A stretch of DNA of 64,000 nt from Eledone cirrhosa (GCA_964016885.1 OZ024758.1:10230001-10294000); one strand, 5' to 3'. Counted from the first letter of the stretch, positions 14,863 to 26,548 are shown. Translations and numbers: made by a program. The notes: generated from the sequence alone by a model not told the origin.

Positions 14863-14925
14863 TATTTTATCTGAGGAAAGCGCACCAATGTGTTTTGGTA
14901 CCCTTGAAATATATATAATAAAATA
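14863..14925 (+). ncRNA. Minimal type I hammerhead ribozyme motif
   Basis: tattttat CTGAGGA aagcgc-accaa-tgtgtt-ttggt-accctt GAAA tatata TA ataaaata. Perfect 8-bp stem I, conserved core, palindromic stem III. Confidence 0.72.
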
Positions 14926-15008
14926 AATATGGTTTTATAAATATAGTTTCCATTTATTTAATATCATTGTATATATATATATATATATATATATATATAT
15001 ATATATAT

Positions 15009-15124
15009 AAATAACAGATTAAAGTTTAAGCAAAGAATCGCTGCTTTCACCCTTAACGGGAACTTCTGAAACTCCTTATTGAGCCCTCTTTGGATTTTAG
15101 TCTTCAAATTTATTATAATTACTA
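15009..15124. mobile_element. (TA)n-embedded insert; inverted copy at 17257-17372
   Basis: About 115 bp shared in reverse complement. Both copies are bounded by (TA)n. Confidence 0.65.
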
Positions 15125-15310
15125 TATATATATATATATATATATATATATATATATATATATATATATATATATATATATATATATATAGGAACCAGTA
15201 GGACCCCGACAGCTGAGCTCAAGCCGTTTCGACGGCTAATTCTGGACTAAATGAAAATGTTGTTCCTTACCACATTTCCTTCGTTATATATATATATATA
15301 TATATATATA

Positions 15311-15502
15311 ACGAAGGAAATGTGGTAAGGAACCAGGTGGACCATAACGCACCAAAGTACTCAATACTTAGGGTAGTAGAGTGGGTAATAGGAACAAGTA
15401 AGACCCCGACGGCTGAGCTCAAGCCGTTTCGACGGCTAATTCTGGACGCAGAATTAGCCGTCGAAACGGCTTGAGCTCAGCCGTCGGGGTCTTACTTGTT
15501 CC
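15311..15502. mobile_element. (TA)n-embedded fold-back element, family A (putative Penelope-like pLTR remnant)
   Basis: Flanked by (TA)n on both sides. Perfect 54-bp inverted repeat (15391-15444 / 15449-15502). Related copies at 15192-15247, 32957-33155, 40830-40950, 44936-45103, 53122-53201 and 56185-56325. Confidence 0.75.
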
Positions 15503-15799
15503 TATATATATATATATATATATATGGACATAATGTGTCTGACCGACAAATATACAGAAATATACACATGCCGCTTTCGTCACAAAAGCAAACATACACG
15601 AACGCTTTGATCATAGGTTTGTTAATACAGGGATAACCTGATGTACACCTTCATCACAACCACCAACACCACCACTAACCCTGTCTCCATCGTTACCGTG
15701 GCCAACACCAAAAGCAACAACTGCAATTCTATTAAAAGTAAAGTTTCATTATGTGTCGTCCACTCAGACCTTAACATTTGTTGTTTGTGTATGTGCATG

Positions 15800-16276
15800 C
15801 TGGTTATACTTGTATAACGTGTACTGGTTATACTTGTACAACGTGTACTGGTTATACTTGTACAACGTGTACTGGTTATACTTGTACAACGTGTACTGGT
15901 TATACTTGTACAACGTGTACTGGTTATACTTGTACAACGTGTACTGGTTATACTTGTATAACGTGTACTGGTTATACTTGTACAACGTGTACTGGTTATA
16001 CTTGTACAACGTGTACTGGTTATACTTGTACAACGTGTACTGGTTATACTTGTATAACGTGTACTGGTTATACTTGTACAACGTGTACTGGTTATACTTG
16101 TATAACGTGTACTGGTTATACTTGTACAACGTGTACTGGTTATACTTGTACAACGTGTACTGGTTATACTTGTACAACGTGTACTGGTTATACTTGTACA
16201 GCGTGTACTGGTTATACTTGTACAACGTGTACTGGTTATACTTGTATAACGTGTACTGGTTATACTTGTACAACGT
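15800..16276. repeat. 24-bp minisatellite (~20 copies, TGGTTATACTTGTACAACGTGTAC)
   Basis: Direct tandem repeat. Explains the WLYLYNVY and CTGYTCTT ORFs. Confidence 0.97.
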
Positions 16277-16286
16277 GAAAAAATGG

Positions 16287-16392
16287 AAGAGTAGATGCTA
16301 CTTATAGAGGATGTTAAGAGTAGATGTTACTTGTAGAGGATGTTAAGAGTAGATGTTACTTGTAGAGGATGTTAAGAGTAGATGTCACTTGT
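16287..16392. repeat. 29-bp tandem repeat (~3.6 copies)
   Basis: aagagtagatgttacttgtagaggatgtt at 16287, 16316, 16345 and 16374. Confidence 0.9.
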
Positions 16393-23279: not shown

Positions 23280-23505
23280 TTTGCAAGAGATGTCAACACA
23301 AATGGACATGTTATTTTTATCTAAAGACGTTTTTTTCTTATTCCAACCCGCCCGTCCCCTCAATCTGTCTTATTTTCTCATTCTTTCTTCTGATGAAGGA
23401 CTAGCGTCCGAAACGTTAAGACCCTCTTCCTGCTATATCAAGCGTTAACCTAATATATCTCTTCCATATACTGTACCGATTGTGTTGTTATTTCTGTTTA
23501 CCTTT
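23280..23505 (+). mobile_element. Hammerhead-bearing repeat (Penelope-like pLTR remnant); inverted copy at 53245-53478
   Basis: About 220 bp shared at high identity with 53245-53478, which lies between (TA)n tracts. Confidence 0.7.
23386..23421 (+). ncRNA. Minimal type I hammerhead ribozyme motif (Penelope-like type)
   Basis: tctt CTGATGA a ggac-tagc-gtcc GAAA cg TT aaga. Palindromic ACGT stem III. Confidence 0.72.
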
Positions 23506-23981
23506 TACGTACATACATACATATACATACACACACACACACACACATATATCATATATATATATATATATATATATATATATATATATATATATATATA
23601 TATACATACATATACATAACCTATATCTATATATATATATCATTTCTACACAAGGCTTCTGGTTTGTAGAGGGCGGTCAATGAGATTGTGGCTCTTATAG
23701 GTTTTATTTTTCTTAATCACGGAGCGTGAAAATCATAAGTGAAATGAAATGGTTCCGTAGACTGCTTGCTGGGAGCTTTTAGTCTCTACTCTTCGGCGCC
23801 TATCACACAAGCCTAAATTTAAATCAAGTACAATACGAGGCTCTAAATTTACATTTCAAAACAAACACCCTTCGTTTGCGTTCAAAGAGACCTAAAAGCC
23901 TAATCTGTCTGTCACTACAGAATCAGCAAGAAAAACGATAATATATAACTTTTCCTTTACTGTTGTTACTAACATTAATGT

Positions 23982-23987
23982 TTTATT
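23982..23987 (-). promoter_or_regulatory. Candidate Prrx polyadenylation signal (AATAAA)
   Basis: TTTATT on + at the end of a repeat-free AT-rich stretch downstream of the stop codon. Other candidates exist. Confidence 0.25.
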
Positions 23988-24737
23988 TGCTTTACGATAT
24001 ACTGTGTATCGCTTTTGTTTTCCTTAACTCAAACCAGTGTTTTCTATGTCTCTAGACGTATTATGATTTTTCAGCAAGAACTTGATGACTCTAAATCGCT
24101 GTTTGCCACTGAATTGATTCATTTCGTTCTTGTTATTCTTAAAAATGATACTGATATATTTTTGTAATATCATTTACAATTTCTTTACAATACACCAACC
24201 ATTTCTCATTACACTTTTTTCTTCTATAATCACATAATATACATAATAAAATAACCACGAAGACTTTTTGACAAACATTTCTCTCCATGCGTACTTGCAA
24301 GTCTTAAACAATGAAAATTGTTATTAGTTTTTGTTTATTCGTTTGTTTGCTTTGCTTGAACTTCCATTTTGTTAGCAACAAAATGTCCTTTTTTAAATAC
24401 TGTTGTTGTTGTTATTTGAAATGTTGCCAGTTGTAACATCAAACCCTTTATAGTTTGTGAACACCAGCGAGAAGATTATCGTCATTATCTTTGTTTACAA
24501 TTATTATCTCTGGCAGATTCTCAGAAATAGTAGCATTTTTTTCTTTCTATTTCATAAATTTTCTTTATTACCTTTTCTCAACGAAACAACAGCAACTGAT
24601 GATGAAATAAAATGAAATTATTAGAATAGAGAATTGTATTACAATTATTATTTTTATTATTTTGTTTTGATTTGTTTCTTTATTTACTGCCTCATTTTTT
24701 GTTTGTTTTTGATTTTGAGCTGACAATGTCATTTGAA

Positions 24738-25076
24738 TTATTGGGGCATTTGAGGTGCACCACCATACCCCGGGTGTTGCATAACGTTATTGTATTCCTG
24801 TGCCTTCAACCGTAAACAGGCGAGGGTTGAGCCAACGCTGTGCTGTGGAGGGTACGTATGGTTAACTAGAGCGCAGCTTGATGGCGTCGTAATTGGATTG
24901 TATGCTGGAGTCGTCCATGACAAATAGTCTGTGTTCATGGGGGACGGGCGTGGTGTTATCGGCTGTTCAATTGGTGTAGAACTATCCGGATGGTGGGCGC
25001 CGTACAAGTTGTTTCGCTGAGCCATAGAGTTTCGTTCGTTGCGACGGAATTTTGCTCTTCGATTCTGAAACCACAC
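24738..25076 (-). CDS. Prrx: Prrx terminal coding exon (helix 3 WFQNRRAKFRRNER, conserved linker, OAR motif, TAA stop)
   Basis: Acceptor ttAG|GTG TGG TTT CAG, in frame with the upstream exon (VQ|VWFQN, the canonical PRD-class intron position). Q50 homeodomain. IEQPITPRPSP..DYLSW matches the PRRX1 motif VEQPIVPRPAPRPTDYLSW. STLACLRLKAQEY is the OAR motif. Confidence 0.96.
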   Translation of the reverse strand: MWFQNRRAKFRRNERNSMAQRNNLYGAHHPDSSTPIEQPITPRPSPMNTDYLSWTTPAYNPITTPSSCALVNHTYPPQHSVGSTLACLRLKAQEYNNVMQHPGYGGAPQMPQ

Positions 25077-25848
25077 CTAATGTAAATAAATAAGACAAAT
25101 GAATATTAGATGTAATAAATGAACCAAAAATGGCTTCAAAGAATTATTGTTATTATTAACATGGTAGAACACACCCATCCTCTAAGTAAAAAAAAACAAA
25201 AACAACTAACAAAATAAGAAAAACAGCAAGAAAAAAGAAGAAAGCAAACCAGATGTTTTTAATTCATATGCAAATATTTTGTTTAATAAGTAGACACACA
25301 CATTTTTACATGTATATAATTACTACACACACACACATATATTATATATATATGTATATACATTATATATATATATATATATATATATATATATATATAT
25401 ATATATATATATATATATATATATATATAGAGAGAGAGAGAGAGAGATAGAGAAGGAAATGGTAGTTTATTTGAAGCATTACGTAGTGAGGTATAAATGT
25501 TTGAAGTTAGAAGGTGAGAGCAATGCAGGTATGGATATATGATAGAATATAAATACAAATGCAAAAGATAGTGCTGACAATCAATCTTTTACCTTAAATT
25601 TATTTGTATATATATATATATAAAATTGTTAAACGATATTCAATGATTATGTCAAAGAATGAGTTTTACAGTAGATTGGAAGCACTCAACGAAAAAATAT
25701 GTTGTACATCCGAAATATGTATAATAAAATGTAATTGATCAAAAGAACATCTATTTTATTAATACTTATATTTTAATATATATTTTAATATATATATATA
25801 TATATATATATATATATATATATATATATATATATATATATATATATA

Positions 25849-25997
25849 GGTTTTAATATAGATGAGATTCTAATGATTTCTAAAGAATGAAACAGTTCTA
25901 GTCCTGTAGAATCTCATCTATATTAAAACTTTTATACTCTGCTATGTATTGAGTACCTTACTTACTGTGGTTACCTCCGATTCAACCCAGAATAACG
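25849..25997. mobile_element. (TA)n-embedded element, family B, with short inverted arm
   Basis: Flanked by (TA)n. Inverted copy with a longer fold-back at 48429-48615. Confidence 0.7.
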
Positions 25998-26308
25998 TAT
26001 ATATATATATATATATATATATATATATATATATATATATATATATATATATATATATGTATATATATAAAATATATATATAGAAAGTAGTAAGTGTACA
26101 AACCAATCAAGAAAGAGAGATAATAGATTAGTTGTAAGAATTATAAGCCAGTAGTGAAGAGGAAATAATTGTAAACCAATAAATATTTTTTCAAAAATTT
26201 GGTTGTGTATTCTCTGACAATCATTTTCATATATATATATATATATATATATATATATATATATATATATATATATATATATATATATATATATATATAT
26301 ATATATAT

Positions 26309-26548
26309 AATATTAGATCGAAAGATGGTTAGAAGAGTTCCAAGTATTTTATTATGCGCTTAATGAACACTTGTGAATAGCGAAGTTTTAAATCAACATC
26401 ACTATTCACAAGTGTTTTTTAGGCTTCATATCATGTATCCCTATTTTATCTGATGAAAACGCAGATATCATCCCATGATGATATTTGTTTTTGAAATGCG
26501 CATAATAAAATACTTGGAACTCTTTTAACCATCTTTCGATCTTATATT
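26309..26548. mobile_element. TA-adjacent element with ~50-bp terminal inverted arms containing a hammerhead
   Basis: aatattagatcgaaagatgg...tattatgcgc is mirrored by gcgcataata...ccatctttcgatcttatatt. It begins directly after a long (TA)n. Confidence 0.7.
26442..26512 (+). ncRNA. Minimal type I hammerhead ribozyme motif
   Basis: tattttat CTGATGA aaacg-cagatatcatc-ccat-gatgatatttg-ttttt GAAA tgcgca TA ataaaata. 8-bp stem I, 11-bp stem II, palindromic stem III. Confidence 0.78.

What the first reader, a model, noticed from the sequence alone, without database searches (positions are those of the whole stretch)
14863..26512. Two hammerheads with identical stem I but different stem II and palindromic stem III
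Seen: 14863-14925 and 26442-26512 both read TATTTTAT-CTGANGA-[hairpin]-GAAA-[6-nt palindrome]-TA-ATAAAATA. Their stem II sequences are unrelated, and the palindromes differ (TATATA versus TGCGCA). Conserved architecture with changed sequence suggests selection on RNA structure. The predicted cleavage triplet is AUA. Inference: a distinct AT-rich hammerhead subtype in which different palindromes could restrict dimer pairing to the same family.
Basis: partly seen in the sequence, partly recalled or inferred. Interest (0 to 1): 0.72.

Follow-up and report, generated by a model that had tools for sequence, protein, structure and literature searches.

The report
Retroelement hammerheads with family-specific palindromes
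The two motifs are real hammerhead (self-cutting RNA) sequences, likely left by short stubs of Penelope-like jumping genes, and are predicted to cut only as pairs joined through an 8-letter palindrome, a new example of an already described kind.

Summary
Observation confirmed. Both sites are intact type I hammerhead motifs (helix I 8 bp, full core, 8-nt palindrome A15.1-U16.1, AUA triplet); 0 of 100 shuffles give any. One correction: the bases of helix II are related (AAGCGCA/AAACGCA), not unrelated. Copy 2 belongs to an abundant repeat (3104 contigs in one run, 5177 reads in another) whose copies run into (TA)n and show inverted pieces, as Penelope-like element (PLE) ends do. All 8 helix changes at 3% or more in run X1 keep pairing, and the free core position N7 varies. 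Copy 2's homodimer folds into the double hammerhead (-11.5 kcal/mol); the heterodimer does not (+6.1); copy 1 mostly misfolds. Palindromic helix III with dimer cleavage is published for PLE hammerheads, and Hydra-clade PLEs already show family-variable 9-10-nt helices III. No reverse transcriptase link, no RNA data, and copy 1's family was not sampled. Family-restricted pairing is predicted, but selection for it is unsupported: 5 of 14 Hydra magnipapillata families share one palindrome. Verdict: new member of a known kind, low interest.

The parts
14863..14925 (+). Hammerhead copy 1 (type I): helix I 14863-14870/14918-14925, CUGAGGA 14871-14877, helix II 14878-14905, GAA 14906-14908, palindrome 14909-14916, predicted cut after 14917
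14843..14943 (+). Outer 12-bp helix (14843-14854 with 14932-14943) that extends copy 1's helix I beyond an 8x6 internal loop
   Evidence: 0 of 2000 flank shuffles and 0 of 1000 window background sites reach 12 bp; it could also be an inverted insertion piece
14790..14968 (+). Approximate stub carrying copy 1, between (TG)n/(TA)n and (TA)n; 43 nt from the motif to (TA)n
   Evidence: boundaries read from the microsatellites only, family not sampled
26442..26512 (+). Hammerhead copy 2 (type I): helix I 26442-26449/26505-26512, CUGAUGA 26450-26456, helix II 26457-26492 (3 bp, C-U, 12 bp, 4-nt loop), GAA 26493-26495, palindrome 26496-26503, predicted cut after 26504
26400..26637 (+). Forward arm of an abundant repeat carrying copy 2; other copies run into AT-rich or (TA)n sequence at 26536, 26547, 26555 or 26637
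   Evidence: tables 1, 2, 7
26310..26359 (-). Inverted piece matching 26498-26547 (48 of 50); predicted to pair over the cleavage site and helix I in any + transcript that includes it
   Evidence: helix I probability 0.0 in 26310-26640
26366..26399 (-). Inverted piece of the repeat's 5' part; its right end (26397-26399) is a fixed joint in other copies
   Evidence: table 5 (8 of 14 listed joints)
23386..23421 (+). Separate family: classical minimal PLE-type hammerhead (palindrome ACGU, GUU site) in a 226-nt repeat 23281-23506
53339..53374 (-). Second copy of that minimal hammerhead, in 53254-53477 (94% identical to the first)
10058..10096 (-). Further candidate hammerhead, palindrome AGUACU, with U-U at the base of helix II as in Hydra-clade table rows
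   Evidence: single copy, weaker
25077..30690 (-). Intron of a homeobox gene (exon 30691-30878; last coding exon from 25076 to 24738); copy 2 lies in it, antisense to the pre-mRNA
   Evidence: (PF00046 E 1.7e-14; OAR E 0.0022, below cut-off)

Best explanation
The two motifs are intact type I hammerhead sequences from two diverged repeat families, likely the 3'-end stubs of Penelope-like retroelements inserted in (TA)n, predicted to self-cleave after AUA only when two same-family RNAs pair through their 8-nt palindromes. Shown: the motifs, the repeat nature of copy 2, its (TA)n ends, its inverted pieces and its pairing-preserving variation. Predicted: alone, the RNA gains nothing by closing helix III; two copies swap helix I strands and form one 8-bp helix III between two catalytic junctions (the known double hammerhead), each core cutting the partner strand. 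Inferred from the literature: in the parent element this would happen between neighbouring repeats of a tandem transcript and would free the element RNA. The palindromes likely diverged by compensatory transitions (all four differences between TGCGCA and TATATA are G/A or C/T changes, which pass through G-U pairs), so poor cross-family pairing would be a by-product rather than a selected barrier. These two genomic copies are likely inert passengers: each is single, copy 2 is locked by its own inverted piece and lies antisense in an intron, and copy 1 is predicted to misfold.
For: Motifs beyond chance. Copy 2 is an abundant repeat: 3104 contigs laid in X1, 55 in X4 (a second organism), 1 in X7, 5177 reads in X9. 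Loose ends run into (TA)n or AT-rich sequence at 26536/26547/26555/26637; 8 of 14 listed joints connect a fixed end (26397-26399) to variable positions 26438-26600, i.e. head-to-head with a truncated arm; two X9 joints (79 and 95 reads, 2 and 1 starts) read best as head-to-tail (my inference from side=32). This matches the inverted truncated copy, tail, partial tandems and (TA)n targeting described for PLEs (PMC8557442 passages; PMC3846280 passages). Variation in X1 at 3% or more: 8 of 8 helix changes keep pairing, N7 is the only core position listed as varying, and by the tallies no purine of core or palindrome varies (0 of 12). In most reads helix I extends by 5 bp past a 6-nt bulge whose letters vary. 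Folding: closing helix III in a monomer costs 2.9 kcal/mol; the copy 2 homodimer's MFE is the double hammerhead, -11.5 kcal/mol against two monomers; the heterodimer's is +6.1. AUA is a natural, active triplet (PMC1636495 passages). Three more PLE-type hammerhead motifs lie in the same window.
Against: No reverse transcriptase or GIY-YIG remnant among the 150 longest of 191 stop-to-stop fragments scanned, so the PLE link rests on structure. No match to the Naiad or Hydra consensus ends that I read; all 26 Hydra-clade rows have C15.2-G16.2 and a 9-10-nt helix III, whereas these have U15.2-A16.2 and 8 nt. No Rfam hammerhead family matches either stretch at E up to 10. The conservation statistics are weak: Fisher p=0.06-0.11 for helices, p=0.14 for core plus palindrome; 44 variant rows were not shown and 5 X1 changes (3 C>T, 1 T>A, 1 T>G) are unplaced. 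X9 shows a palindrome-breaking G>T at 26498 in 1181 of 2650 reads (probably one locus: 1141 molecules end at 26495; near 0 in X1 and 0 in X4), and 26492 T>C (17% in X9) breaks a pair unless it is in phase with 26457 A>G. With 40 nt or more of the window's 5' flank, the copy 2 dimer loses helix I in prediction (probability 0.0 for 26400-26536 and longer; 0.9 for 26430-26536). Copy 1's active dimer is only -1.4 kcal/mol and not the MFE. No cleavage or RNA evidence.
Confidence: 0.72

Rival explanations
1. The repeats are short non-autonomous units (non-LTR retrozyme-like or solo pseudo-LTRs of about 155-255 nt) with a fixed 5' end, mobilised in trans by a PLE, rather than truncated ends of coding elements. 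The ribozyme mechanism would be the same.
For: A fixed end at 26397-26400 in 8 X1 joints and 2 X9 joints; animal retrozymes carry type I hammerheads, occur as monomers and are proposed to derive from pLTRs (10.64898/2026.07.22.740005; PMC7229834 passages); no RT found in the window.
Against: No listed end or joint coincides with the predicted cut at 26504/26505, as unit-length circles would give; ends run into (TA)n and head-to-head inversions are the commonest listed joints, which is PLE-like. pLTRs of coding elements also have fixed 5' ends. This rival overlaps the best explanation and differs only in whether a coding parent with this very end exists.
Confidence: 0.3
2. The palindromes are a selected self-recognition code: helix I is kept identical, and helix III diverges so that each family's RNA is cut only by its own kind, like the HIV-1 dimerisation signal.
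For: Helix I identical (16 of 16) while flanks are unalignable; in-register helix III energies -10.5 and -3.2 for homo pairs against +5.7 for the hetero pair; four different palindromes among five motifs in one window; discordant 6-nt palindromes lower HIV-1 co-packaging 2.3-2.7 fold (PMC3605237 passages).
Against: 5 of 14 H. magnipapillata PLE families share one helix III and 13 of 14 begin ACT, so co-resident families tolerate shared palindromes. Tandem copies pair in cis, which needs no code. Any palindrome that drifts by compensatory change loses cross-pairing without selection for it. Only two families were seen, one of them as a single copy.
Confidence: 0.1
3. They act as monomers: the 8 nt fold as a 2-bp helix III with a 4-nt loop, stabilised by contacts between the interrupted helices I and II.
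For: Canonical metazoan type I hammerheads have a 1-2-bp helix III with a small palindromic loop, and invertebrate retrozyme ribozymes cleave efficiently alone; both copies have extended, interrupted helices I and II that could dock.
Against: The two pairs would be A-U and U-A; closing them costs 2.9 kcal/mol in both copies; a loop has no need to be palindromic in both families; helix lengths (8 and 3 bp before the interruptions) differ from the canonical 6 and 4.
Confidence: 0.12
4. Copy 1's TATATA is not a family palindrome but decay toward the surrounding (TA)n, or chance, so the 'two different palindromes' is half an artefact.
For: TATATA is 2.7% of 6-mers in the window; copy 1 has a C-A mismatch in helix II and misfolds in prediction; its family was not sampled.
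Against: All other core and helix I letters of copy 1 are intact, with a perfect 12-bp outer helix; four independent transitions would be needed within six letters; only 2 of 909 GAAA sites in the window are followed by TATATA.
Confidence: 0.1

Closest known systems
Minimal and small-palindrome type I hammerheads of metazoan Penelope-like elements (Cervera and de la Pena 2014, PMC4209133; parts 1-2 of 4 of the text read, supplements not opened)
   Same: Type I topology, intact core, palindromic positions 15.2-16.2 and loop 3, predicted dimer action, mostly single dispersed copies, many variable families per genome.
   Different: There: helix I 4-5 bp, helix III insert 0-4 nt, conserved G10.1-C11.1 and a bulged base after A9. 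Here: helix I 8 bp of A-U, an 8-nt palindrome, A10.1-U11.1 in both window copies (G10.1 in 46% of X1 depth), no bulged base, long interrupted helix II.
Hammerheads of Hydra-clade PLEs (Craig et al. 2021, PMC8557442; section 11, passages, File S1/S2 and consensus parts read)
   Same: (TA)n targets, motif near the 3' end, long self-complementary helix III that varies between families, inverted truncated copies.
   Different: All 26 table rows (25 families) have C15.2-G16.2 (GUH sites) and a 9-10-nt helix III with unpaired central bases; these have U15.2-A16.2, AUA and a perfect 8-mer. No sequence match. A perfect 8-nt palindrome is listed only for PLE-X1_cBra of Chara, with a different sequence and site.
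PLE hammerhead variants that cleave as dimers (Lunse, Weinberg and Breaker, PMC5785218; not held; seen only as a title and a summary sentence in PMC6765202)
   Same: Dimer cleavage through a palindromic short stem III.
   Different: Could not be compared; this variant may or may not be among theirs.
Metazoan non-LTR retrozymes (PMC7229834 passages; bioRxiv 10.64898/2026.07.22.740005 parts 1-2 of 5 and passages)
   Same: Short non-coding repeat with a type I hammerhead; monomers exist; amphibian forms need dimers.
   Different: No tandem array in the window, no canonical 6/4-bp helices, ends at (TA)n with inversions rather than at the cleavage site.
Natural AUA hammerheads ELVd(+), sCYDV-RPV(+), cscRNA(-) (PMC1636495 passages)
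   Same: AUA triplet; sCYDV-RPV(+) also has a long helix II broken by internal loops.
   Different: Plant subviral RNAs with stable 5-6-bp helix III that act alone.
HIV-1 dimerisation initiation signal (PMC3605237 passages), an analogy only
   Same: Different 6-nt palindromes bias RNA partner choice.
   Different: A kissing loop for packaging, not a ribozyme helix; no homology.

Membership tests
Hammerhead ribozyme, type I | Core CUGANGA, GAAA, UH in type I order | tested here: met
Hammerhead ribozyme, type I | Helices I and II can form around the core | tested here: met
   copy 2: in the MFE; copy 1: possible but 2.7 kcal/mol above the MFE
Hammerhead ribozyme, type I | Variation spares the core and keeps the helices | tested here: inconclusive
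   family 2: N7 varies, 8 of 8 helix changes keep pairing, p 0.016 to 0.14 by test, 5 changes unplaced; family 1 not sampled
Hammerhead ribozyme, type I | Match to an Rfam hammerhead model | tested here: not met
   no hammerhead family at E up to 10 in either stretch; a model match is not required for the chemistry
Hammerhead ribozyme, type I | Self-cleavage at the predicted site | not testable with these tools
   no RNA holder listed; needs an assay
Dimer-type PLE hammerhead | Palindromic helix III, unstable as monomer, stable as dimer | tested here: met
   (prediction; strong for copy 2, marginal for copy 1)
Dimer-type PLE hammerhead | G10.1-C11.1 pair and bulged base after A9 (min-HHR consensus) | tested here: not met
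   A-U in both window copies; G10.1 in 46% of X1 depth, C11.1 in 0.5% of X1 and 17% of X9
Penelope-like element | RT and GIY-YIG ORF attached to the repeat | tested here: inconclusive
   none in 150 of 191 window fragments; no laid record spans beyond the stub; no genome
Penelope-like element | Inverted truncated copy, tail, partial tandems | tested here: met
   and tables 5 and 7, for family 2; the tandem reading is inferred from two joints
Penelope-like element | (TA)n insertion preference (Naiad and Hydra clades; microsatellite bias also noted for Neptune) | tested here: met
   table 7
Hydra-clade PLE | Helix III with C15.2-G16.2 and 9-10 nt as in all 26 tabulated motifs | tested here: not met
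Naiad PLE | 3' end like the cephalopod Naiad consensus sequences | tested here: not met
   no such motif by eye in the Naiad_Obim, _Ovul and _Omin ends or by motif search of the supplement; other Naiads not read
Non-LTR retrozyme | Tandem 150-450-nt units, circular RNA, ends at the cleavage site | tested here: inconclusive
   single units in the window; two possible head-to-tail joints; no end listed at the cut site; no RNA

The most novel reading that the evidence does not exclude
A clade of short mobile RNAs keeps helix I letter-for-letter as a shared handle (for its reverse transcriptase or a tertiary contact) and uses the 8-nt palindrome as a family barcode, so that each ribozyme is a self-recognition switch that fires only on meeting RNA of its own family, in trans as well as in tandem; host transcripts that carry the truncated substrate half could then be cut in trans.
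Probability: 0.1. Interest if true: 0.6.

Novelty: new member of a known kind. Interest (0 to 1): 0.27.

Why it matters
As it stands it adds a hammerhead variant (all A-U helix I, long interrupted helix II, perfect 8-nt palindrome, AUA) that Rfam misses, in an abundant repeat of an invertebrate genome. The role of PLE hammerheads is still open (PMC8557442 passage), and this pair gives a clean natural test set: identical helix I and different helix III isolate the palindrome's part in partner choice. If restriction were shown to be selected, it would be a self/non-self code among retroelement RNAs.

Tried and rejected
Genome-wide search: no genome held. Whole-window Rfam scan: the 150 listed of 335 matches were microsatellite look-alikes; focused scans found no hammerhead family. 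The repeat finder was swamped by microsatellites; replaced by a masked self-BLAST, which found no further copy of either family in the window. Pattern scans of viral contigs (34 hits) and metagenome contigs (3 hits) gave chance matches without helix II or long palindromes; genome contigs was not scanned. Naiad 'HHR_half_core' idea (spacer 35-50 nt): rejected for the three octopus Naiad ends read. Hydra-1_Obim: a different motif. No RNA holder listed. Run X7 gave one contig outside the motif. A relaxed scan with one core mismatch found no further convincing long-palindrome copy. TATTTTATC also occurs in another abundant repeat of the window, followed there by different letters: treated as coincidence. 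Earlier-finding look-ups by place and by sequence were blank. Lunse et al. not held. A printed proposal of family-restricted hammerhead dimers was not found: (35 papers, 20 listed, none listed holding both 'heterodimer' and 'Penelope'); this is weak, as the most relevant paper and the supplements of PMC4209133 and of the bioRxiv preprint were not seen.

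
Full report
Observation. Both motifs are present as described. Each reads helix I 5' strand, CUGANGA, helix II, GAA, an 8-nt palindrome from A15.1 to U16.1 (AUAUAUAU in copy 1, AUGCGCAU in copy 2), A17, and helix I 3' strand; the triplet is AUA and the predicted cuts fall after 14917 and 26504. A descriptor demanding a palindromic helix III found five motifs in the window (four with a helix II of 2 bp or more; two strict) and none in 100 dinucleotide shuffles made in 200-nt blocks. The same kind of pattern in viral and metagenome collections gave 34 and 3 hits, none with a palindrome of 4 nt or more, which serves as a chance control. 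One correction: helix II is related at its base (AAGCGCA/AAACGCA, a shared C-pyrimidine mismatch at pair 4, G-C against A-U at pair 3). The flanks are not alignable (p 0.33-0.78). So the two are likely old relatives in which only the ribozyme is kept. No Rfam hammerhead family matches either stretch at E up to 10.

Setting. The window is microsatellite-rich eukaryotic DNA (GC 28-45% per 2 kb; 10,753 of 64,000 bases masked). I take it for an invertebrate, probably a cephalopod, from my recall of its repeat landscape; this was not tested. A homeobox gene runs on the minus strand; copy 2 lies antisense in its intron 25077-30690 and copy 1 lies about 10 kb past its stop. Both stubs sit between microsatellite runs. 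No RT or GIY-YIG family was found in the 150 longest of 191 complex stop-to-stop fragments. No whole genome is held.

Copy 2 is an abundant repeat. Four of 11 listed runs were laid on 26360-26640 at 80% likeness: 3104 contigs in X1, 55 in X4 (another organism), 1 in X7, 5177 reads in X9. Loose ends run into (TA)n or AT-rich sequence at 26536, 26547, 26555 and 26637 (19 rows shown, 160 not); the end at 26555 is 43 nt behind the motif, the same distance as in copy 1. The window copy carries two inverted pieces, 26310-26359 and 26366-26399. Eight of the 14 listed joints link the end of the second piece (26397-26399) to variable positions from 26438 to 26600, which I read as head-to-head copies with one truncated arm; two X9 joints (26395-26539, 79 reads from 2 starts; 26400-26606, 95 reads from 1 start) read best as head-to-tail. 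Inverted truncated copies, an optional tail, partial tandems and (TA)n targets are the described anatomy of Penelope-like insertions (PMC8557442 passages; PMC3846280 passages). The fixed 5' joint also fits a short non-autonomous unit.

Variation within family 2. Table 3 shows 40 of 84 rows. Comparing them with the tallies for X1, 33 of 38 changes at 3% or more are placed and five (3 C>T, 1 T>A, 1 T>G) are not (my reading of the tally column). N7 is the only listed core change. All 8 placed helix changes keep a standard pair, 6 of 6 at Watson-Crick pairs by going to G-U on the + strand (sign test p=0.016; against 7:6 outside helices Fisher p=0.063, or 0.107 if the hidden C>T lie outside). A-to-I editing of the element RNA could add to the A>G share; this was not tested. 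None of the 12 purines in core and palindrome varies, against 17 of 105 elsewhere (p=0.14). Since each palindrome pair holds a purine, no alternative palindrome reaches 3% in X1. Against the reading: X9 has G>T at 26498 in 1181 of 2650 reads (probably one locus, as 1141 molecules end at 26495; near zero in X1, zero in X4), and T>C at 26492 (17% in X9) keeps a pair only together with A>G at 26457, whose phase is unknown. In 80-91% of depth 26514 is A, which extends helix I by 5 bp past a 6-nt bulge whose letters vary. Copy 1 has a 12-bp outer helix instead (0 of 2000 shuffles).

Mechanism (predicted). Closing helix III within one molecule costs 2.9 kcal/mol in both copies. Two copy 2 motifs fold, as their minimum-energy state, into the double hammerhead with swapped helix I strands and an 8-bp helix III: -11.5 kcal/mol against two monomers. 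The copy 1 homodimer gains only 1.4 and prefers another fold; the heterodimer costs 6.1, with helix III probability 0.0. Because helix I is identical, partner choice rests on helix III alone. Context matters: the copy 2 dimer holds with flanks 26430-26536 (helix I probability 0.9) but not from 26400 (0.0), and the inverted piece locks the cleavage site in a 50-bp duplex. AUA is natural and active, though the slowest of four triplets tested in ELVd (PMC1636495 passages). I therefore commit to: dimer-type ribozymes of PLE-related repeat ends that would free element RNA from tandem transcripts, here present as likely inert single stubs. Cleavage, expression and the coding parent are not shown.

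Comparison with what is known. Palindromic helix III, dimer action, single dispersed copies and many variable families per genome are described for metazoan PLEs (PMC4209133, parts 1-2 of 4 read; review PMC6765202 passages). Craig et al.'s File S2 lists 26 Hydra-clade motifs with 9-10-nt self-complementary helices III that differ between families, and one perfect 8-mer in a Chara element. All 26 have C15.2-G16.2, so these motifs fail that clade's pattern, and they do not match the octopus Naiad or Hydra consensus ends that I read. They also depart from the min-HHR consensus (A10.1-U11.1, 8-bp helix I). They work like PLE dimer hammerheads; membership of a named PLE clade is open. Lunse et al. 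(PMC5785218) could not be read, and the supplements of PMC4209133 and of the 2026 preprint were not seen; they may already hold this variant.

The family-restriction idea. The physical effect is predicted, and has an analogue in HIV-1 (PMC3605237 passages). Selection for it is not supported: 5 of 14 H. magnipapillata families share one helix III, tandem copies pair in cis, and the four differences between the two palindromes are all transitions, the neutral route through G-U pairs. I found no printed proposal of the idea, a weak blank for the reasons given.

Verdict. Real, above chance, likely once-functional hammerheads in retroelement stubs; a new member of a known kind with some unusual details. 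Earlier AI notes on other genomes reach similar readings and were used as leads only. Interest 0.27; the bold reading (a selected self-recognition code) has about 0.1 probability.

Noticed in passing
window 23281-23506 (+) and 53254-53477 (-): A 226-nt repeat (94% identical copies) with a classical minimal PLE-type hammerhead, palindrome ACGU, next to (TA)n.
   Followed up: partly
window 10058-10096 (-): Candidate hammerhead with palindrome AGUACU and a U-U pair at the base of helix II, resembling Hydra-clade table rows; single copy.
   Followed up: partly
window 24738-25076 and 30691-30878 (-): Two exons of a homeobox gene with a weak OAR motif; Prrx-like by recall, not tested. Upstream exons were not located.
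   Followed up: partly
window 15191-15502, 32957-33155, 40831-40964, 44997-45102, 53124-53200, 56189-56325: A (TA)n-flanked repeat family with a 112-nt fold-back (15391-15502, 96%) and a stem-loop with a TTCG loop; PLE-like insertion anatomy but no hammerhead core found by my scans.
   Followed up: no
window 48508-48614 and 25866-25994: A 107-nt near-perfect palindrome flanked by (TA)n that holds CTGATGA and GAAA and passed the loose hammerhead scan without a helix II; a shorter relative lies at 25866-25994.
   Followed up: no
window 14325-14427 and over ten other places: An abundant roughly 100-nt repeat that also contains TATTTTATC; SINE-like by recall.
   Followed up: no
window 15010-15109 and 17272-17371: Two 100-nt copies (97%) in opposite orientation next to (TA)n, about 150 nt from copy 1; no hammerhead core found.
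   Followed up: no
window 15800-16277 and 28759-29071: Minisatellites of about 24 and 28 nt period.
   Followed up: no
window 17750-18660: Looks by eye like a decayed DNA transposase remnant (recall); the fragments scanned gave no Pfam hit.
   Followed up: partly
PMC8557442 File S1: Eight Naiad families are marked 'HHR_half_core' with the core halves 35-50 nt apart; a descriptor allowing a long helix II and a long palindromic helix III, as seen here, might show whether some are complete hammerheads.
   Followed up: partly
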